Below, one piece after another: positions 26,429 through 33,680 of a DNA stretch of 33,680 bases. Source of the DNA: a virus (Duplodnaviria; Heunggongvirae; Uroviricota; Caudoviricetes); the IMG/VR virus record IMGVR_UViG_2526164670_000016, positions 1 to 33,680 of that record; one strand, 5' to 3'. How positions within the stretch are numbered: position 1 is the stretch's first letter; every line of letters starts with the position of its first letter. The translations under genes were made by a program, and so were the position numbers. The notes under the pieces were generated by a model. The model ran no database searches, had not been told where the DNA came from, and worked only from the letters and a program-made list of their open reading frames with translations.

Positions 26429-28927
26429 TTACTCTATCGCCTTTCTCCAGCGACTGAGCAACTCATCAACTCTATGCCTTGCCAGCGTTTTACGCCAGTT
26501 CATATCCGCACCGGTCACAATCAACTCCCCTGTAATTTGGTTGGCACGGTAAGTAGTATCAAGCGCAGTCACTTCTCTCCCTTGTACCAGCTTTAGCACT
26601 TGCACAGGTGTGATTTGGATCTTTCTTAACTTCGCCCAATCCAGTACCTGAGCAACTAGGGCTGTAACGTTCTTATCTACTACGCTTTCTTCCTGGCGGA
26701 GCGCATACGCGGCTTTTAAATAGCTTTCCGCTCTAGCTCGGTTATATTCGGTGCACTCACCCACAGTGATACTGTACGCAAGTGACTCAAACTCATCTGC
26801 TGCTGAAACACGCTGCGTTTGTTTGTGGATTTTCAGGCCTTCAGCAATCTCTTTTTTCTGTTCCCACCTTAATTTGCCGATTTCAAATTGCTCTGGAGAT
26901 TCATCCCTAGTCGGCAAAGTCAGATCTGGCCGATAAACAACCTGGCAATCTGTTTGTTTTTTGTACTCAGTACAGTTATTGACACGAGTCCTAGAGGGCG
27001 CAGACGCGCCCTTAAGGTCAACAGCAAGGTCAACGGCCTTGCCTGAATCGTTAATAATCTCCGGTTTCTTACGCACAATCCGATAAGAATGTAGGCGGGT
27101 TTCAACTGGCGGCATGAAGATGTGAGGCATCACCAGTCCTTTAATTAAGGTCTGGTATTCACCGTGATCGTTTGGCTGGTCTTTTTGTTGATACCAGATG
27201 CGCAGTGGCAGATCACAACGGGCAACCAACGCCCCACCCTGCAATTGGGTGTATTGCTGCCAGTCGCCAGCATCCGCTGCACGGTGCAGCTCGGCAAACA
27301 ACGGGTTAATCTGGTCTGCCTTTTCCTGATTGCGGAATCGACGTAGCTCGCGCCAGACTGAAACAGGCGCACCACCAAGGAACTGGAATTGACGAATACC
27401 CCAGCATGATGCCCAGGCCGTCGCATGTTTTGAGGTTTCTTTTAATGGTCTGCCGTTCTCGTCATCTGTTTCACCGTCGAGCGCGTAACCATCAATATTC
27501 TTGCTGATATACTTCACCACATAACCGGTGGCGCTTCCGATTTCATGATCGATAGGCTTCATTTCGAAACGTGGACGAATGCCATGCTTACCCTGCAATT
27601 CGTCCTCATCCTCGCGGGTGGCGTAGTCCTTCATCACTTCCAACAATTCAGCTGAATGTTCTGGTAAGGAAAACAGAAGACCATGCCAGTGTGGCGTTCC
27701 GTCGTGGTGAGATTCAGCCACGCGAAGCCCAAACACCTGAATATCGCGGCGGGCCAACTCAGCGCGGATCTGTTGCCAGACTCGATTAAGATAACGTTGC
27801 GTGGTTCTTGGACTGGCCCCGTTCCATTTGCCATTACGATGACCGAAGACGGTATAGGCATGATATTTGGAAGGTGCTGTCATGGTGAAAAACTGCCCTG
27901 CATAGCCACTTTCGGTAGCGACTTTCTCGAAGCCACCGATGCGAGTCATAAGCTCAACGCGGCGCAAAGCTGGGTTAGATATGCTCTTATCTATTTGCTC
28001 AATGAGTGAAATGCGTTCTTTGGTTTCCTGATCTTCCAGCTCAAGCCTGGCCATAATCGCCCGGCTGCGTTTCCGCCTAGTGTCCCACTCTTCAACATGA
28101 TGCTTACTGCAATATGGCGCAGCGCCTCGCTTCACATCACCAAAAGCGATGTGCAGATGTTCACGCCAGCGCGTGCCGTACTTTTTAAGATTTCGGTGCC
28201 AGTAGCGATCATCCAGCATCTTGCTGATACCGGTCGTCGCCTCATCAATAAACAATTTACCCCGGCAATACTTTTCCCAGTTCGGTGGCGTTAGAAAGAA
28301 AAGACGCGCAAGTTGTGCCGCCTCGGTGTAAAGGTATTCGGCATACCGGCGATCACTTTGCGTCTCTACCGTTTCGTGTACCTCGCTCAGCACCGACCGC
28401 ATATAGATCGCAATATCCTGCGCTAATAGTTCAACATCTTCCGGCGTGTAGTCCGGCAGCCTGTTGAATCTCTCAACTAAACCGTTAAGGGTATCAAATA
28501 CATGGTAAAGCGGGTTTAACTTTTTGAATGCTGTTTCAGCTTGTGATTTTGCGTCTTCGGTCATCGCAATTGCGTATTGAGCATTCACCATATTGATGGG
28601 CGGCAGCTCTCTGCGGATGATGTCTCTTACTGCCTGACGGGCAATATGTCGGCCCTTCATCGTGTGAATACTGTCAATGCGAGAAGCCAAGCGCAGGCGT
28701 ATAAAGCGAGGAAGTCTCGAAAGGGTAAGTTTCACCCACGACAAAAACTCTTGTTCTTGACCCAATTCGAATAGATCAACAACAGGAGTCTTATCAACAT
28801 AAATAGCTGCATTAGGCTTTTGCCACTCGTAATCGTAATTGATATCAGCAGCAGAATTAGACATACCCCTGCCGCCAACTAACTGGCGGCGATTGTTACT
28901 CGGCCGAACAAACGCGGAGTCTGTCAC
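26429..28927 (-). CDS. A: Replication initiation endonuclease (P2 gpA-like rolling-circle initiator), 832 aa from the GTG at 28927
   Basis: HUH motif (DGTPHWHGLLF) and catalytic tyrosine motif (GYVVKYISKNIDGYALDG) as I recall from P2 gpA; GTGA overlap with the Dam stop, alternative ATG at 28864. Confidence 0.85.
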   Translation of the reverse strand: MTDSAFVRPSNNRRQLVGGRGMSNSAADINYDYEWQKPNAAIYVDKTPVVDLFELGQEQEFLSWVKLTLSRLPRFIRLRLASRIDSIHTMKGRHIARQAVRDIIRRELPPINMVNAQYAIAMTEDAKSQAETAFKKLNPLYHVFDTLNGLVERFNRLPDYTPEDVELLAQDIAIYMRSVLSEVHETVETQSDRRYAEYLYTEAAQLARLFFLTPPNWEKYCRGKLFIDEATTGISKMLDDRYWHRNLKKYGTRWREHLHIAFGDVKRGAAPYCSKHHVEEWDTRRKRSRAIMARLELEDQETKERISLIEQIDKSISNPALRRVELMTRIGGFEKVATESGYAGQFFTMTAPSKYHAYTVFGHRNGKWNGASPRTTQRYLNRVWQQIRAELARRDIQVFGLRVAESHHDGTPHWHGLLFSLPEHSAELLEVMKDYATREDEDELQGKHGIRPRFEMKPIDHEIGSATGYVVKYISKNIDGYALDGETDDENGRPLKETSKHATAWASCWGIRQFQFLGGAPVSVWRELRRFRNQEKADQINPLFAELHRAADAGDWQQYTQLQGGALVARCDLPLRIWYQQKDQPNDHGEYQTLIKGLVMPHIFMPPVETRLHSYRIVRKKPEIINDSGKAVDLAVDLKGASAPSRTRVNNCTEYKKQTDCQVVYRPDLTLPTRDESPEQFEIGKLRWEQKKEIAEGLKIHKQTQRVSAADEFESLAYSITVGECTEYNRARAESYLKAAYALRQEESVVDKNVTALVAQVLDWAKLRKIQITPVQVLKLVQGREVTALDTTYRANQITGELIVTGADMNWRKTLARHRVDELLSRWRKAIE

Positions 28928-29910
28928 CGCTCAGACTCCACGCCACATGTCGCAGCCGTTGCCAGCATTTCGTTATAGGTCGCGTTACCCATTACAGGGC
29001 CACAATCAGGGCAACCACCACCACCGGCACGACCACAGCCGCTACACAATTTGAGGACGCCGATCACTTCACTGGCGGCCCCTCGGGTAATGGCGTTCGC
29101 GCTAACAGAACGGTTAACGCTGATTTCCTGGAAGTTGAAACAGCGATAAATCTCGCGGGTGACTGGGGTGTCGCTATTGGACAGGATCACCGGCGAACCA
29201 GTAAGGCGGTTAATATCCAGCAGGACGGCAGCTAACTGGCGATGTTCTTTAATGCCAAACGGGGCTGTGTGATATTGGGTGAAATTAGCTGTTTCGCTTG
29301 TTGGCAGGTATGGCGGATCGCAGTAGATAACCGCGTCACTACCAATCATGATTTTTAACGTGCTCTGGAAATCGCAGCACACGAAAATGGCTTTCGTGTC
29401 GTTAGCTTTTTCAGAGAATAAACGGATCTGTTCTTCCGGGAAGTAAGGCGGGGTTTTGTGACGCCCAAAGGGAACGTTATATCCACCCTGTTGGTTGTAG
29501 CGTACTACGCCGTTATATCCGTGACGGTTCAGGTAAAGAAATTGTGCTGCACGAAGAATCTTGCCCGCGTCCGGCCCATCTTCAAACACACTGCGCAATG
29601 ACAGTAGGTCACGTGCGCGGGCGTTGAAATCATCGCGGATCCATTTATAGCCGTCTTTATCGCCGTACACTTTAAACAGTGGGCGAGCAGCGTCGATCAC
29701 CGCATCAGGCCAGCGGGTTATCTGGCGATACAGGTTAATTAAATCTGGGTTGATATCACCCAGGATATAACGGCGATATTCAGTATTGAGGAAAACAGAA
29801 GCACCGCCGACAAACGGTTCCACCAGGCAATCGGCTTTCGGCAGAATCGGCAGCAAATCAGGCATAACGCGGCCTTTACCACCGGGCCATTTAACGAGAG
29901 ATCGAATCAT
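28924..29910 (-). CDS. DNA adenine methyltransferase, Dam-like, with a Cys-rich C-terminal extension, 328 aa
   Basis: WPGGKGRV...EPFVGGASVF (SAM-binding) and IYCDPPY (catalytic DPPY) closely resemble E. coli Dam from memory; extra tail CSGCGRAGGGGCPDCGP; GGAG RBS before the ATG at 29910. Confidence 0.85.
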   Translation of the reverse strand: MIRSLVKWPGGKGRVMPDLLPILPKADCLVEPFVGGASVFLNTEYRRYILGDINPDLINLYRQITRWPDAVIDAARPLFKVYGDKDGYKWIRDDFNARARDLLSLRSVFEDGPDAGKILRAAQFLYLNRHGYNGVVRYNQQGGYNVPFGRHKTPPYFPEEQIRLFSEKANDTKAIFVCCDFQSTLKIMIGSDAVIYCDPPYLPTSETANFTQYHTAPFGIKEHRQLAAVLLDINRLTGSPVILSNSDTPVTREIYRCFNFQEISVNRSVSANAITRGAASEVIGVLKLCSGCGRAGGGGCPDCGPVMGNATYNEMLATAATCGVESER

Positions 29911-29980: not shown

Positions 29981-30376
29981 TTAATTTACTGCGTTATCTG
30001 GCGCGGGTGGTTTGTCGCGTATCGCCTGAATTTCGGCGCGTGGTGCGGCGTAGTCCTCAAATTCCCACGGCATTGATGCTGCAAATTCGGAAAGGCGCTT
30101 AATGCCCATCAAAAGGCACGTTTGCTCCTTTTCGGTTAGATTTTCGTAAGTACAACCCAGCTGTTTGGCGGTCAGCTTCGGCATTCCGACTATGTATCTG
30201 GACGCATCGTTTGCCAGGATGAAAATCACCTTTTTGCAGGCATCATCCAGGCGGTTAAAACGGGTTGCAGTGTCATTCACGCGTGAGGCGTTCAAACTGG
30301 CTTGCAGCCGCGCCCGTTGCTCTAAGAACTGGCGGCGACCTGGCTGTTGTTCTGTCTTATCCATCAACATAACCAC
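29981..30376 (-). CDS. Hypothetical early-operon protein, up to 131 aa (sits where P2 has gene B, but not recognised as B)
   Basis: ORF in the early operon between the 97-aa ORF and the Dam gene; several candidate starts; no family recognised. Confidence 0.4.
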   Translation of the reverse strand: MVMLMDKTEQQPGRRQFLEQRARLQASLNASRVNDTATRFNRLDDACKKVIFILANDASRYIVGMPKLTAKQLGCTYENLTEKEQTCLLMGIKRLSEFAASMPWEFEDYAAPRAEIQAIRDKPPAPDNAVN

Positions 30377-30385
30377 CTCCCCGAA

Positions 30386-30679
30386 CTACGCAAAGATGCC
30401 CATTAAGCGGGAAAACCAGCGGCGCTTATTACGCGGGCGCGACATGAACGGTACACGGTAGTTTTTAACAAATTGAACATCTAACGCTTTCGGCTGGAAG
30501 AACCTCCCGTCCGGGGTTTCAATCCAGCCACGTTGATGCTGACGGTGGGTGATCTGCTGGCCGTGGGTGAGCAGGCTGGCGAGTGAAGGGCACTGTGTTA
30601 AGTCCATGATGATCTCCGTCATATTGAAAAGATGCCGGGATATAACCCCACGCCCGGCACGTGTTTCCTGTGATAACAT
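30386..30679 (-). CDS. Hypothetical early-operon protein, 72-97 aa depending on start
   Basis: ORF with an internal ATG (MDLTQ...) preceded by GGAG; basic C-terminus; no family recognised. Confidence 0.3.
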   Translation of the reverse strand: MLSQETRAGRGVISRHLFNMTEIIMDLTQCPSLASLLTHGQQITHRQHQRGWIETPDGRFFQPKALDVQFVKNYRVPFMSRPRNKRRWFSRLMGIFA

Positions 30680-30745
30680 CGCTATGCCTGTGAAACTTTG
30701 GAGAGTGAATCAGGCATAACAATCACCAACACAGAAGGAGTTGTA

Positions 30746-31225
30746 ATGAAATTCAATGTATTTTTTAAAAAAGACCACGGATCACACTGGGTGCTTTCCG
30801 ATGGTGCCCCCCTCTTTGAAAGTCCACTATTTGAAACAAGACCTAAAGCCATTGATGACCTTGAGAACTTTGTAGGCCTTATGGAATCGCCAATCTTTAT
30901 TAAGGCTGGTGACGATATTAATTCTGGCGATACAGAAAACTGTCCATCTGTAGTTATTTCTTTAAAACAGCATGAATCGCTATGGGGCTGGGAATTATTT
31001 ATCTCAAAAAATGGACAACTGTCTAAAGTTACCGAAAGTTCAGGAAATGGCTTTGACTCATTAGAATTAGCAAAGCAAAATGCCCAGTTTTTCCTTAATG
31101 CCATTATCGACGCTCCTATTCTGGATCAAGCCGATGTCGCTATCCCCAGCATGCACTTCTCAAAATCTTTCGAGGAAACGCACCACATTGGTGACACTCA
31201 CCCATCTAGTAAATGGTTCAAATAA
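30746..31225 (+). CDS. YegP-like protein with two DUF1508-like repeats, 159 aa
   Basis: Strong RBS AAGGAG 6 nt before the ATG at 30746; two repeats (...HWVLSDGAPLFESPLFETRPKAIDDLENFV and ...WGWELFISKNGQLSKVTESSGNGFDSLELAKQNAQFF) resemble YegP from memory; low GC; opposite strand to the early operon. Confidence 0.5.
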   Translation: MKFNVFFKKDHGSHWVLSDGAPLFESPLFETRPKAIDDLENFVGLMESPIFIKAGDDINSGDTENCPSVVISLKQHESLWGWELFISKNGQLSKVTESSGNGFDSLELAKQNAQFFLNAIIDAPILDQADVAIPSMHFSKSFEETHHIGDTHPSSKWFK

Positions 31226-31229
31226 TCCA

Positions 31230-31586
31230 TCACTGTGGCGTTATCGTTTTTCTTGTGCGAGGTGGTACATCTCGCACGGTTTCTTCATCAACAATCAACT
31301 CATAAACTCTGATGCTGTTATCACCTTTTGATACGTCATCAAATACCTGAAAAAGAAAACTCATGAATTGCTCATAAGTGACGCTGGGTTCAACATACCC
31401 ACCTGTAACCTCAATTAATGGTGTTAGTCCTGAATTATCTGCTAACGAAACGCAGTCCAACTTATCCAAACGGAAAAAGTAATTACCGCAAGGTGTTCTT
31501 TTATCCTTAATCCGTATAAACACATTTGATAACGCTGTATGACTATCTGAGAGTTTAAAGATTTTTGCCGTGTCCATTTTATTCAA
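31230..31586 (-). CDS. Hypothetical protein, 118 aa, immediately downstream of cox
   Basis: AT-rich ORF in the position occupied by orf78 in P2; no family recognised. Confidence 0.35.
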   Translation of the reverse strand: MNKMDTAKIFKLSDSHTALSNVFIRIKDKRTPCGNYFFRLDKLDCVSLADNSGLTPLIEVTGGYVEPSVTYEQFMSFLFQVFDDVSKGDNSIRVYELIVDEETVRDVPPRTRKTITPQ

Positions 31587-31599
31587 CCCTGTAAGTTGC

Positions 31600-31875
31600 T
31601 TATGATGGATTGCCCAGACCCAACCACATTAACCACCCTTCCCTAATTTCCTTCGGGCGGCTCTCATACGCCATTTTCATGCCGTTGTTCCAGGCTGGAA
31701 GATAGACCCAGTACTCACCTGCCCGCCCGGAAGTTGATTGCGGATCGGTCATTTCAACTACAGGTAGCTTTCCTTTTTCAATCATCCCCTTCACCGCTGC
31801 CGGTGTTTTACCAATGAGTTTTGCGAACTCCTGATATGGGACGGCATCTGTGCTTAACGCGATCTGTTTAACCAT
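31600..31875 (-). CDS. cox: Cox (P2-type excisionase and transcriptional regulator), 91 aa
   Basis: Near-identical by memory to P2 Cox (...DAVPYQEFAKLIGK...GKLPVVEMTDPQSTSGRAGEYWVYLPAWNNG...AYESRPKEIREGWLMWLGLG); divergent from C. Confidence 0.85.
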   Translation of the reverse strand: MVKQIALSTDAVPYQEFAKLIGKTPAAVKGMIEKGKLPVVEMTDPQSTSGRAGEYWVYLPAWNNGMKMAYESRPKEIREGWLMWLGLGNPS

Positions 31876-31937
31876 TTAAGGCCCTCACAAGTTTAAGAAT
31901 CGTCACCAATGGCTTATAGTTGCTTTTGATGTTCATT

Positions 31938-31991
31938 TCTAAACATCAAACAGTCTACATCTAAATCAAATAGTATTGAGATCTAAACACC
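31938..31991. promoter_or_regulatory. Immunity switch region: three direct repeats of TCTAAA(C/T) spaced exactly 22 bp (starts 31938, 31960, 31982); candidate C-repressor operators overlapping the Pe/Pc promoters
   Basis: Direct repeats with two-helical-turn spacing in the cox-C intergenic region; P2 C is known to bind paired direct repeats flanking the early promoter -10. Confidence 0.45.
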
Positions 31992-32291
31992 ATGTCAAAC
32001 GCCTTAAACGAGAAAATTGTACTCATCAGAAAGTCTGAGTATCTCAGCAGACAGCAACTTGCTGATTTAACAGGCATTCCCTATGGCACTTTAAGTTATT
32101 ACGAAAGTGGTCGTTCTACACCGCCCACGGACGTAATGATGAGGATTTTGCAAATGCCCCAGTTCAGCAAATACACGTTGTGGTTTATGACCGATCAGGT
32201 TGCTCCCGAAGCCGGTCAGATAGCACCGGCCCTCGCACACTTTGGGCAAGATGTAACAACATCGCAGCACTCAGACCAAAAGATTGGTTAA
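31992..32291 (+). CDS. C: Immunity repressor C (P2-type), 99 aa
   Basis: Near-identical by memory to P2 C (MSN...EKIVL.RKSEYLSRQQLADLTG.PYGTLSYYESGRSTPPTDVMM); 99 aa as in P2; followed by int. Confidence 0.85.
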   Translation: MSNALNEKIVLIRKSEYLSRQQLADLTGIPYGTLSYYESGRSTPPTDVMMRILQMPQFSKYTLWFMTDQVAPEAGQIAPALAHFGQDVTTSQHSDQKIG

Positions 32292-32436: not shown

Positions 32437-33221
32437 ATGACAATTAAGAAACTCGATGATGGTCGTTATGAAGTGGATATCAGACCTGCAGGGCGCAACG
32501 GAAAGCGCATCCGCAGGAAATTTGACAAGAAAAGTGAGGCTGTAGCTTTTGAGAAACACACTCAATACAACCATCACGATAAAGAATGGCTAGCTAAACC
32601 GACAGATAAGCGGCATCTGTCTGAATTAACAAAAGTCTGGTGGGATCTGAAAGGCAAGCATGAAGAACACGGAAAATCCAATTTGGGTAAGATTGAAATC
32701 TTTACCCGGATCACTGATGACCCTTGCGCGTTCCAGATAACCAAAGCGCTTATTAGCCAGTACAGCATGACTCGCAGAGGGCAAGGCATAAAACCGGCCA
32801 GTATTAACCGCGACCTTACCTGCCTGAGTGGTATGTTTACTGCGCTAATTGATGCGGAACTGTTTTTTGGCGAACACCCTTTCAGAGGGATGAAAAAGCT
32901 CAAGGAGCAGAAACCAGAAACAGGCTATCTGACGCAGGAAGAAATAACATTGTTACTTGCCAATCTTGACGGGGACAACAAGAAAATCGCGATCCTCTGT
33001 TTAAGTACCGGCGCTCGATGGGGTGAAGCCGCGAAACTGAAAGCTGAGAACGTAATACAGAATCGGGTGACGTTCGTTAAAACAAAGACGAACAAACCGC
33101 GCACAGTCCCTATCTCTGAGGAAGTTGCTGTAATGATTGCGGGTAAAGGTTATCTGTTCCCTGATGCCTCATATCCGAAGTTCAGGCGAACAATGAAAGA
33201 TGTAAAACCAGATCTACCGAG
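32437..33221 (+). pseudogene. int: Tyrosine integrase (P2 Int-like), 3'-truncated by IS insertion; about 261 of an expected ~337 aa retained
   Basis: N-terminal 260 aa strongly resemble P2 Int from memory up to ...KDVKPDLPS; after about 33221 the frame reads unrelated sequence (LYIDLCNCLILICS...) into the IS; the C-terminal catalytic region is absent. Confidence 0.8.
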
Positions 33222-33680
33222 CCTGTACATAGATTTGTGTAATTGCCTGATTTTGATATGTTCAATCCAGCATCAAATGAAGGTTAATTTATGGACGAAA
33301 AACAGTTACAGGCTCTGGCTAACGAACTGGCCAAAAACCTCAAAACCCCTGAAGACCTCAGTCAGTTTGATCGGCTGCTGAAAAAACTCAGCGTTGAAGC
33401 CGCTCTCAATGCTGAGATGACACACCATCTTGGGTATGAGAAAAATCAGTCCAGACCAGGAGCTAACTCCCGCAACGGTTATTCCACAAAGACCGTTATC
33501 ACAGGCGACGGTCCACTGGAACTGCGTACTCCGCGCGATCGTGACGGTACCTTCGAACCGCAACTGGTAAAGAAAAATCAGACCCGTATTACCGGGATGG
33601 ATAACCAGATCCTGTCGTTGTATGCCAAAGGGATGACCACCCGTGAGATAGCTACTGCGTTCAAAGAACTGTATGACGCA
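33221..33680 (+). mobile_element. IS256-family insertion sequence (IS1414/IS285-like), left end and 5' part; continues beyond the window
   Basis: Transposase ORF begins at 33291, about 70 bp inside the inferred left end; the boundary is placed where the integrase homology stops (plus or minus 10 bp). Confidence 0.7.
33291..33680 (+). CDS. IS256-family transposase, N-terminal 130 aa (partial, runs off the window)
   Basis: MDEKQLQALANELAKNLKTPEDLSQFDRLLKKL...NSRNGYSTKTVITGDGPLELRTPRDRDGTFEPQLVKKNQTRITGMDNQILSLYAKGMTTREI is the typical IS256/Mutator-like transposase N-terminus; no stop before the window end. Confidence 0.8.
   Translation, partial: MDEKQLQALANELAKNLKTPEDLSQFDRLLKKLSVEAALNAEMTHHLGYEKNQSRPGANSRNGYSTKTVITGDGPLELRTPRDRDGTFEPQLVKKNQTRITGMDNQILSLYAKGMTTREIATAFKELYDA

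What the first reader, a model, noticed from the sequence alone, without database searches (positions are those of the whole stretch)
30680..31600. Reverse-oriented YegP-like (tandem DUF1508) moron plus an AT-rich ORF inside the early operon
A plus-strand gene with a strong AAGGAG RBS encodes two YegP/DUF1508-like repeats and lies antisense to the early transcript that must cross it to reach the Dam and A genes. It is flanked by an AT-rich 118-aa gene next to cox. Both look like acquired cargo rather than P2 core genes, and the antisense arrangement implies transcriptional interference or lysogen-specific expression.
Basis: partly seen in the sequence, partly recalled or inferred. Interest (0 to 1): 0.45.

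Follow-up and report, generated by a model that had tools for sequence, protein, structure and literature searches.

The report
Reverse-facing cargo gene in P2-like prophage
A small gene that points against the prophage's early operon is real, has its own conserved promoter and stop signal, and encodes a distant structural relative of the uncharacterised YegP proteins. It occupies a slot that related P2-like phages fill with many other unknown small genes.

Summary
A 159-aa plus-strand gene (30746-31225, AAGGAG RBS) lies antisense inside the early operon of a P2-like prophage. It converges on an AT-rich early gene next to cox (31230-31577; 115 aa, not 118). Both are under purifying selection.

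The YegP call is partly right:
- The protein is an internal duplication (hhalign 96%).
- Pfam DUF1508 does not match it, and it is acidic whereas YegP is basic.

Independent transcription is supported in silico only:
- An extended -10 (TGTGnTAnnnT) lies 62-71 nt before the ATG in 11/11 lineages.
- It is followed by a covarying 5' stem-loop.
- A plus-strand-only terminator hairpin sits inside the partner's last codons.

The main new result is that this promoter/leader module is not specific to the gene. An exact-pattern search found 82 P2-like viral contigs. In them the module always points the same way as C and int, and it precedes about 20 BLAST-unrelated small ORFs.

So ORF159 is one cargo of a conserved reverse-oriented expression slot. 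Its biochemical function is unknown. My best guess is a lysogen-expressed protein-binding factor in phage-phage or phage-host conflict.

The parts
30633..30659 (.). Inverted repeat / hairpin TGCCGGG-N13-CCCGGCA, followed by CGTG. It is the leftmost conserved element of the module and spans about -53 to -27 relative to the inferred start site.
   Evidence: Compensatory changes occur in 3 lineages and the covariation is modest. The motif is part of the search pattern that returned 82 IMG/VR loci. Its 3' arm lies 13-14 nt from the -10 hexamer in 73 of 80 instances, and there is no conserved U-tract on either strand.
30669..30679 (+). Extended -10 promoter TGTG-A-TAACAT (TRTGn + hexamer) with no -35 hexamer. 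The inferred start site is about 30684-30687.
   Evidence: TGnTAnnnT lies 62-71 nt from the ATG in 11/11 lineages, including ones too diverged to align. The TG, T-12, A-11 and T-7 positions are invariant in alignment A5. No experimental start site is available.
30683..30718 (+). 5'-terminal stem-loop of the inferred mRNA (TATGCCTG-N20-CAGGCATA).
   Evidence: Fold energy -17 kcal/mol, z -2.5. 87.5% of cells are paired, 5 of 8 pairs carry double compensatory changes, and 0/500 shuffles reach the observed values, on a hand-anchored alignment. Most other cargo leaders also have it.
30719..30745 (+). A/C-rich unstructured leader with the Shine-Dalgarno AAGGAG (30735-30740).
   Evidence: The same CAACCAACCACAAAGGA-type leader precedes unrelated cargos.
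30746..31225 (+). ORF159: an acidic (pI 5.0, net -10) cytoplasmic protein. It has two DUF1508/UPF0339-like beta-beta-beta-alpha-beta domains and a conserved, low-confidence C-terminal tail ...F-S-x-x-F...I-x-D-x-H-P-S-x-K.
31253..31289 (+). Plus-strand intrinsic-terminator-like hairpin (GTGCGAGGTG/CATCTCGCAC) followed by TTTCTTC. It is embedded in the ORF115 codons ...ETVRDVPPRT...
   Evidence: Scan hit. Fold energy -18 kcal/mol, z -2.65; the reverse strand is followed by an A-rich tract, so it should not terminate early transcription. It is conserved with compensatory changes in most lineages, and the distant lineages carry other hairpins at the same place. Its arms coincide with the invariant TVR...RT residues of ORF115.
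31230..31577 (-). ORF115: an acidic early-operon gene convergent with ORF159 (the stops are 4 nt apart). The fold is PH/PTB-like at weak confidence, and the conserved C-terminal tail overlaps the ORF159 terminator.

Best explanation
ORF159 is the cargo of a conserved, reverse-oriented expression slot in the early region of a subgroup of P2-like (Peduoviridae) prophages.

The slot supplies, in order:
- an inverted repeat centred near -40;
- an extended -10 promoter with no -35 hexamer;
- a 5'-terminal stem-loop;
- an A/C-rich leader with a strong Shine-Dalgarno.

The cargo ends at a hairpin/T-tract that terminates only the plus strand and is written into the last codons of the convergent early gene ORF115.

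The slot points the same way as C and int and against Pe. I therefore infer that ORF159 is made when Pe is silent (in the lysogen, and perhaps during establishment).

The protein is an acidic two-domain pseudo-dimer of the DUF1508/UPF0339 (YegP-like) fold. It has an invariant, probably flexible C-terminal hydrophobic-x-D-x-H-P peptide. From that I infer it works by binding a protein partner rather than nucleic acid, as a lysogenic-conversion factor in phage-phage or phage-host conflict.

What is shown in silico: the gene, the fold, the duplication, the conserved cis-elements, the slot and its cargo diversity. What is inferred: the timing of expression and the biochemical role.
For: Gene reality and conservation.

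Fold and duplication. Weak sequence signals agree with them: P0059 against PF07411 at 17.1 bits, E 0.005; P0057 against the HVO_2922 family at E 0.029; and the best PDB sequence hit of the family profile is 6q2z, E 0.51.

Promoter, leader and terminator are conserved although dS is saturated.

Slot generality:
- 82 IMG/VR loci carry the module, and 65-67 of them have an SD-preceded ORF. Only 8 of these are ORF159-like; there are about 20 BLASTP-unrelated cargo clusters of 41-174 aa.
- Orientation is constant: int lies downstream on the plus strand in 58/58, C in 50/50, and A upstream on the minus strand in 52/52.
- The slot occurs in the isolated phages SEN4/SEN5 and in Yersinia phages, and in an E. 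coli prophage with a 64-aa cargo.
- Phage SI7 shows the empty site.

Composition. Acidic pI in most family members, against pI above 9 for YegP.

The C-terminal tail is kept in the Yersinia lineage, where the partner is not an ORF115 homologue, so the tail's target is unlikely to be ORF115.

Against: - There are no transcript or protein data, so the promoter and terminator are consensus and conservation inferences. The generic sigma-70 scan did not flag the site because it lacks a -35.
- The covariation counts use hand-anchored alignments, which lean towards the proposed structure.
- The terminator T-tract is short (TTTCTTC).
- No PADLOC, NCBIfam or Pfam match gives a function for ORF159, ORF115 or ten other cargos.
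- The role in conflict is argued from context only.
Confidence: 0.6

Rival explanations
1. The module is primarily a regulatory promoter of the phage itself, analogous to pE of phage 186. On this reading it is a factor-dependent promoter in the lysogenic direction, placed after the first early gene(s). Its transcription opposes Pe and may read on towards C and int. ORF159 and the other cargos would then be passengers or modulators of the lysis-lysogeny decision.
For: - 186 pE is annotated between apl and cII and points towards cI/int. Its CII site is ATGTTTG-N13-CAAACAT, 9 nt from a -10, with no -35.
- The module here is TGCCGGG-N13-CCCGGCA, 14 nt from an extended -10, also with no -35, at the equivalent map position and orientation.
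- The distance from the repeat to the -10 is nearly fixed at 13-14 nt in 73/80 instances.
Against: - The spacer between the arms varies (11, 12 or 13 nt, and 8 nt in L004/L014), which is unusual for a dimeric protein site. My recollection of the 186 CII literature is that binding there is very sensitive to spacing.
- No CII-like HTH protein was recognised in the window's early operon.
- A hairpin/T-tract follows the cargo.
- An extended -10 can work without an activator.
- ORF159 and ORF115 are under clear purifying selection as proteins.
Confidence: 0.2
2. ORF159 and ORF115 form an obligate two-protein system, for example a lysogen-expressed effector or exclusion factor with an early-expressed antidote. 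The PH/PTB-like ORF115 would bind the conserved C-terminal peptide of ORF159.
For: - The two genes are adjacent and convergent in 10 of 11 lineages, with parallel divergence down to about 30% identity.
- The stop codons are 0-20 nt apart or overlap.
- The two genes have opposite inferred expression phases.
Against: - The Yersinia lineage keeps ORF159 and its tail with an unrelated partner.
- The ORF115 domain also sits next to a different 91-aa cargo.
- In STEC strains an IS3 truncates ORF115 while ORF159 stays intact.
- No defence or toxin-antitoxin model matches.
- No complex prediction could be run.
Confidence: 0.12
3. ORF159 is a functional equivalent of chromosomal YegP: a stress-type, nucleic-acid-binding tandem DUF1508 protein carried by the phage.
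For: - Same fold and same tandem layout.
- Tandem DUF1508 is described as a pseudo-dimer with PC4/Whirly-like topology and proposed as a nucleic-acid sensor (PMC12065111; bioRxiv 10.1101/2024.11.21.623966).
- yegP-like genes lie downstream of capK/capS immune regulators (PMC13373217).
Against: - The Pfam model fails.
- pI is 5.0 with net charge -10, against pI 9.4 for YegP.
- The protein has an extra linker and a conserved C-terminal tail that YegP lacks.
- The family is restricted to P2-like prophages.
Confidence: 0.06
4. The plus-strand ORF is a chance or decaying ORF, and the real function of the interval is non-coding or lies in the long antisense ORF (30682-31104, minus strand).
For: A stop-free antisense frame of 122-158 codons occurs in 7 of 9 lineages. 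In the window it is preceded by an AGGAG (reading).
Against: - Synonymous-codon shuffles give almost as few antisense stops, so the open frame is largely a by-product of amino-acid composition; summed over 11 lineages, 30 stops were observed against about 43 expected.
- L003 and L016 carry 5 and 9 stops in that frame.
- ORF159 has dN/dS about 0.2, a confident fold, and a conserved start and SD.
Confidence: 0.02

Closest known systems
YegP / UPF0339 / DUF1508 (Pfam PF07411; PDB 6Q2Z HVO_2922, 2K49 SO_3888, 3BID NMB1088, 2K8E YegP)
   Different: It does not reach the Pfam threshold. It is acidic rather than basic. It is about 50 residues longer, with a variable inter-domain linker and a conserved C-terminal x-D-x-H-P tail. 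It is found only in P2-like prophages. The function of the reference family is itself unknown.
Phage morons (autonomous promoter-gene-terminator units of deviant composition, such as P2 tin, old and Z/fun, or the lambdoid morons; the definition is from my own knowledge of Hendrix and colleagues' work)
   Same: It has its own promoter and its own terminator, about 11 points lower GC, presence/absence polymorphism among related phages, and an orientation that allows expression from the repressed prophage.
   Different: It sits antisense inside the early operon rather than at the cos-proximal or tail-gene hotspots. The promoter/leader belongs to the slot and is shared by many unrelated cargos. 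The terminator is embedded in the coding sequence of a convergent gene.
[quoted passage not shown]
   Same: It is a variable accessory locus in an otherwise conserved P2-like genome, located in the int-to-A interval.
   Different: The cargos here are single small ORFs of 41-174 aa with no match to known defence models. I did not find the shared promoter/leader module or the reverse orientation mentioned in the passages I read.
Phage 186 pE/CII establishment promoter
   Same: It is a promoter in the lysogenic direction placed after the first early gene. It has no -35, and it carries 7-bp inverted arms with a 13-bp spacer just upstream of the -10.
   Different: The arm sequence differs and the repeat lies 14 rather than 9 nt from the -10. 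The spacer length varies among lineages. A coding cargo and a terminator follow immediately. No CII homologue was identified.

Membership tests
Pfam DUF1508 (PF07411) / YegP family | The sequence matches the family HMM at or above the curated threshold (22 bits). | tested here: not met
   No hit at E <= 1 or E <= 10 for the window protein. The best of 27 family members, P0059, scores 17.1 bits, E 0.005. hhalign against a YegP alignment gives probability 2%.
Pfam DUF1508 (PF07411) / YegP family | The UPF0339 domain fold (three-stranded sheet plus helix). | tested here: met
Pfam DUF1508 (PF07411) / YegP family | Two tandem copies forming a pseudo-dimer, as in YegP (2K8E). | tested here: inconclusive
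   The internal duplication is shown (hhalign 96%, E 3e-9), and pTM 0.79 suggests a defined two-domain arrangement. The inter-domain geometry could not be superposed on 2K8E with the tools at hand.
Moron (autonomous transcription unit in a prophage) | Its own promoter upstream of the gene. | tested here: inconclusive
   A conserved extended -10 lies at a fixed distance from the ATG in 11/11 lineages and is part of the pattern found in 82 IMG/VR loci. There are no transcript data.
Moron (autonomous transcription unit in a prophage) | Its own factor-independent terminator downstream. | tested here: inconclusive
   The hairpin plus TTTCTTC at 31253-31289 is specific to the plus strand and conserved with compensatory changes. 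The T-tract is short, and no 3'-end data exist.
Moron (autonomous transcription unit in a prophage) | Deviant base composition and presence/absence among close relatives. | tested here: met
   GC is 0.40 and 0.39 against 0.51 for the window. The gene is absent from phage SI7 at the same junction and from all INPHARED records. It is present in 19-21 of 5,426 complete E. coli genomes.
Moron (autonomous transcription unit in a prophage) | Expression from the repressed prophage. | not testable with these tools
   This needs RNA-seq, 5'-RACE or a reporter in a lysogen.
Known anti-phage defence systems (PADLOC-DB 2.0) | A match to a defence-protein model. | tested here: not met
   No hit at E <= 0.1 for ORF159, ORF115, four distant homologues and four partners. 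Ten other cargos give only chance-level hits.
186-type CII-activated establishment promoter (pE) | Lysogenic-direction promoter after the first early gene, no -35, and a 7-N13-7 inverted repeat upstream of the -10. | tested here: met
   (186) against (this module). This is architectural resemblance only.
186-type CII-activated establishment promoter (pE) | A cognate CII-like activator, and a transcript that reads into the repressor and integrase genes. | tested here: inconclusive
   No CII or HTH family was detected among the window's early ORFs other than cox. A terminator-like hairpin follows the cargo. Read-through cannot be tested here.

The most novel reading that the evidence does not exclude
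A subgroup of P2-like phages carries a previously undescribed, integron-like expression slot inside the early operon. It consists of a conserved inverted repeat, an extended -10 promoter and a structured leader, pointing in the lysogenic direction with 186-pE-like geometry. Into this slot about 20 or more unrelated small, mostly uncharacterised ORFs, including this divergent YegP-fold protein, have been swapped. The slot would couple the phage's lysis-lysogeny transcription state to the expression of a rapidly exchanged repertoire of exclusion, anti-defence or decision-modulating proteins.
Probability: 0.3. Interest if true: 0.7.

Novelty: new variant of a known kind. Interest (0 to 1): 0.5.

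Why it matters
P2-like phages are treated as having a very conserved gene order, with accessory genes confined to a few hotspots (PMC9122126, PMC13586616).

A promoter-equipped slot that faces against the early operon would be a compact, easily testable source of new phage-conflict or lysogeny-control proteins. Each cargo is a single ORF with a defined native promoter and leader.

The slot also offers a natural case of convergent transcription between a lytic promoter and an embedded lysogenic-direction unit.

For the YegP/DUF1508 fold, which still has no known function, a phage-borne acidic variant with a conserved docking-like tail gives a new experimental handle.

Tried and rejected
Sequence-family searches
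- Pfam, NCBIfam and PADLOC gave no significant family for ORF159, ORF115, distant homologues, partners or ten other cargos. PHROGs gave only unknown-function families: phrog_9021 and phrog_10410 for the two proteins, phrog_10410 again for the Serratia partner, and nothing for the two L025 cassette proteins.
- hhalign of the family, and of a merged single-repeat profile, against a YegP alignment was not significant. The YegP set I could retrieve was at least 79% identical, so this test is weak.
- Family profiles searched against PDB sequences gave nothing significant. For ORF159 the top-ranked hit is 6q2z.

Structure, RNA and locus searches
- Foldseek against BFVD found no meaningful match. The afdb50 library was unavailable.
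- Rfam found no match in 30300-32100.
- The search for related loci on genome contigs found nothing, and the wide alignment A2 was rejected by the tool.

Ideas considered and rejected
- Long multidomain hits in the exhaustive search (P0053, P0055, P0058, P0062) are cadherin/Ig-repeat proteins and were treated as spurious.
- An overlapping antisense gene (30682-31104) was rejected as mainly a by-product of composition.
- The upstream hairpin as an intrinsic terminator for the early strand was disfavoured, because no U-tract is conserved after it in most instances. The window copy and tR1 of phage 186 do look alike.
- I looked for a LexA box upstream of ORF159 by eye and saw none.
- RNAalifold on a MAFFT alignment of the leader recovered only a 4-bp core because of mis-registration. 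I therefore used a hand-anchored alignment and state that caveat.
Full report
**What is there**

The window is the right arm of a P2-like prophage. Reading leftwards from the face-to-face switch promoters (Pe at 31998-31970 on the minus strand, Pc at 31893-31920 on the plus strand), the early operon contains, in order:
- cox (31600-31875; Pfam Phage_Cox, E 6e-43);
- a 115-aa gene (31230-31577);
- a Fil-like gene (30386-30607);
- a 131-aa gene, a D12-class adenine methylase, and the replication gene A.

Between the 115-aa gene and fil lies a plus-strand gene, 30746-31225. It encodes 159 aa, and AAGGAG sits 5 nt before its ATG. The early transcript has to cross this gene antisense to reach fil, dam and A, because the simple scan finds no other minus-strand promoter in between.

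PGAP annotates the same two genes as hypothetical proteins in E. coli prophages that are 96% identical. These are integrated between yegQ and yegR.

The SD spacing, the homologues and PGAP all favour the ATG at 31577, which gives 115 aa.

Both genes are AT-rich: GC is 0.400 and 0.388, against 0.514 for the window. Both are under purifying selection, with dN/dS of 0.07-0.29 at saturated dS.

**Is it YegP/DUF1508-like?**

Pfam gives no DUF1508 hit for this protein, even at E <= 10. PHROGs places it in phrog_9021, function unknown.

The family is small. There are 13 clusters among 5.8 billion proteins. An exhaustive profile search finds 26 representatives among 1.84 billion, and four of those are spurious repeat proteins.

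An AlphaFold model built on the family alignment is confident (pLDDT 84, pTM 0.79). It shows beta-beta-beta-alpha-beta twice, followed by a low-confidence tail. The two halves are homologous to each other (hhalign probability 96%, E 3e-9).

Three weak sequence signals point the same way:
- family member P0059 hits PF07411 at 17.1 bits (cut-off 22), E 0.005, on its second repeat;
- P0057 hits the HVO_2922 family at E 0.029;
- the best PDB sequence hit of the family profile is 6q2z, E 0.51.

A profile-profile comparison with a YegP alignment was not significant, but that alignment had low diversity.

My reading is that ORF159 is a remote relative at fold level, with the tandem architecture, and not a member of the Pfam family as defined. 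It also differs from YegP in other ways:
- it is acidic (pI 5.0, net -10; most family members have pI 5-6), whereas YegP has pI 9.4;
- it has a variable linker between the domains;
- it has a conserved C-terminal tail in which D150, H152 and P153 are invariant across 27 sequences.

**Independent transcription**

Upstream regions from 11 lineages were compared. Their proteins are only 25-65% identical and dS is saturated, yet the regions share four elements:
- an inverted repeat TGCCGGG-N13-CCCGGCA (30633-30659);
- TGTG-n-TAnnnT (30669-30679), in which exactly the diagnostic bases of an extended -10 are invariant, lying 62-71 nt from the ATG in all 11 lineages;
- a stem-loop beginning 0-8 nt after the hexamer (30683-30718);
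- an A/C-rich leader ending in the SD.

The stem-loop covaries. 87.5% of cells are paired, 5 of 8 pairs carry double compensatory changes, 0/500 shuffles reach the observed values, and slid controls pair only 21-41%. The caveat is that this alignment was anchored by hand on the stem. MAFFT with RNAalifold recovered only the 4-bp core.

Downstream, a plus-strand hairpin followed by TTTCTTC (31253-31289; -18 kcal/mol, z -2.65) is conserved with compensatory changes. On the minus strand it is followed by an A-rich tract, so it should not stop early transcription. Its arms are the codons for the invariant TVR...RT residues in the otherwise low-confidence tail of ORF115. This suggests a dual constraint on those codons.

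Together these are the elements of a self-contained transcription unit. None of it has been verified experimentally.

**The partner**

An ORF115 homologue is the convergent neighbour of the ORF159 homologue in 10 of 11 lineages, from E. coli, Citrobacter, Serratia, Salmonella, Yersinia and Proteus. Identities run down to about 27%.

The link is not absolute:
- the Yersinia P0057 lineage has an unrelated 140-aa partner;
- the ORF115 domain also occurs next to a different 91-aa cargo;
- the ORF115 domain is found fused to another domain in Serratia and Citrobacter.

**The slot**

A related E. coli prophage has the same inverted repeat and extended -10 at the same map position, but with a different 64-aa plus-strand gene and a different convergent partner.

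An exact-pattern search of IMG/VR for the repeat plus extended -10 returned 82 loci, mostly on contigs of about 30 kb. In 65-67 of them an SD-preceded ORF starts 31-70 nt after the -10, mostly 59-70 nt.
- Only 8 of these ORFs belong to the ORF159 family.
- The rest fall into about 20 BLASTP-unrelated clusters of 41-174 aa. Some of the roughly 60-aa clusters may be remotely related to one another.
- Most share the 5' stem-loop and the CAACCAACCACAAAGGA-type leader.
- The module always points the same way as C and int (C 50/50, int 58/58) and against A (52/52).
- In 16 loci cox lies after the slot in the early direction, rather than before it as in the window.

The slot is present in isolated phages: Salmonella phages SEN4/SEN5, where it holds the 60-aa gene SEN5_34, and Yersinia phages. 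Salmonella phage SI7 has cox directly followed by fil, which is the empty state.

None of ten representative cargos has a Pfam or credible PADLOC match.

The literature I could read places the main P2 accessory hotspot between gpA and gpQ (PMC9122126). [quoted passage not shown] I found no description of a shared reverse promoter/leader.

**How it most likely works**

Shown in silico: the gene, the fold, the cis-elements, the slot, its orientation and its cargo diversity.

Inferred: the unit is transcribed from its own extended -10 promoter when Pe is repressed. The 5'-terminal stem-loop and the strong SD would give a stable, well-translated mRNA; a stabilising role for 5' stem-loops is established knowledge, not something tested here. 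The terminator would confine the transcript. In lytic growth, convergent Pe transcription and the resulting antisense RNA would reduce expression while ORF115 is made.

For the protein, several features favour protein binding over the nucleic-acid binding proposed for basic tandem DUF1508 modules (PMC12065111). These are its acidity, the absence of any catalytic motif, the pseudo-dimeric scaffold and the invariant flexible tail. The tail is retained where the partner differs, which argues that its target is a conserved host or phage protein rather than ORF115.

The context favours a role in lysogenic conversion or in conflict between phages. It is a swappable small cargo, in the lysogenic orientation, in a phage group known to carry exclusion genes. 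That last step is a guess, at roughly 30-40%.

**Rivals**

The most serious rival is that the module is a counterpart of 186 pE. The annotated 186 pE lies after apl and points towards cI/int. It lacks a -35, and its CII site is 7-N13-7, 9 nt from the -10. The module here is 7-N13-7, 14 nt from the -10, and that distance is 13-14 nt in 73/80 instances.

Against this rival:
- the spacer between the arms varies (8, 11, 12 or 13 nt);
- no CII-like protein was found;
- a terminator follows the cargo.

An obligate ORF159-ORF115 system, a true YegP equivalent, and a spurious-ORF or antisense-gene reading are each less likely. The reasons are given under rival explanations.

**Verdict**

The finding is best described as one cargo, with a divergent YegP fold, of a conserved reverse-oriented expression slot in P2-like phages. 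It is a new variant of a known kind (a moron in a hotspot), of moderate interest, with unknown biochemical function.

Noticed in passing
window 33220-33680: The integrase gene loses homology to intact copies at about 33220. The rest of the window matches a multicopy element found in thousands of E. coli genomes and on plasmids. An ORF starting at 33292 (MDEKQLQALANELAKNL...) looks like an IS256-family transposase from my recollection. The prophage's int is therefore probably truncated by an IS.
   Followed up: partly
window 30633-30663, and the loci: The inverted repeat upstream of the reverse promoter has the same 7-N13-7 geometry as the CII site of phage 186 pE. It is flanked by a repeated CAYG (loop end ...CCAYG, then CRTG after the 3' arm). 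The loop sequence (TTTTAGCCATG and variants) is itself conserved. Its function is unresolved: it could be an operator or activator site, or an RNA hairpin in the early transcript.
   Followed up: partly
window 30682-31104 (minus strand): A 140-codon ORF runs antisense to ORF159 in the frame where the wobble positions coincide, and it is preceded by an AGGAG. Long stop-free antisense frames recur in 7 of 9 lineages. Synonymous shuffling explains most of this, leaving only a weak residual depletion of stops (30 observed against about 43 expected).
   Followed up: yes
L024 1227-2576 (E. coli O45:H2 FWSEC0003; also O103/O111 strains): In several STEC genomes an IS3-family element is inserted just after the ORF159 stop. 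It removes the C-terminal residues of ORF115 and the terminator region, and leaves ORF159 intact.
   Followed up: partly
L004 6501-7145, L022 6537-6959, protein P0016: The convergent partner proteins are mosaics. A motif RRxYYxNGxHxG is N-terminal to the ORF115 domain in Serratia, C-terminal to it in a Citrobacter protein, and present without it in the Yersinia partner. It gives weak PHROG hits to a portal-protein family (E 2.5e-6 and 3e-4).
   Followed up: no
window 28924-29910 (minus strand): The D12-class adenine methylase has a Cys- and Gly-rich C-terminal extension of about 60 residues (...CSGCGRAGGGGCPDCGP...) beyond the Pfam domain. It may be a zinc-binding tail.
   Followed up: no
L108 2885-2913 (phage 186 tR1) against window 30625-30660 (minus strand): The 186 record annotates early-operon terminators that are anti-terminated. 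The 3' part of tR1 (CCGGGCATTCTTTTG) resembles the minus-strand reading of the window's upstream hairpin (CCCGGCATCTTTTC). The T-tract is not conserved in most other module instances.
   Followed up: partly
L005 8919-9884 (E. coli GN06156, left end of the same prophage type): An AbiH-family abortive-infection gene is annotated right after yegQ, at the left edge of a prophage otherwise about 96% identical to the window over the region compared. I did not check whether the window has it.
   Followed up: no
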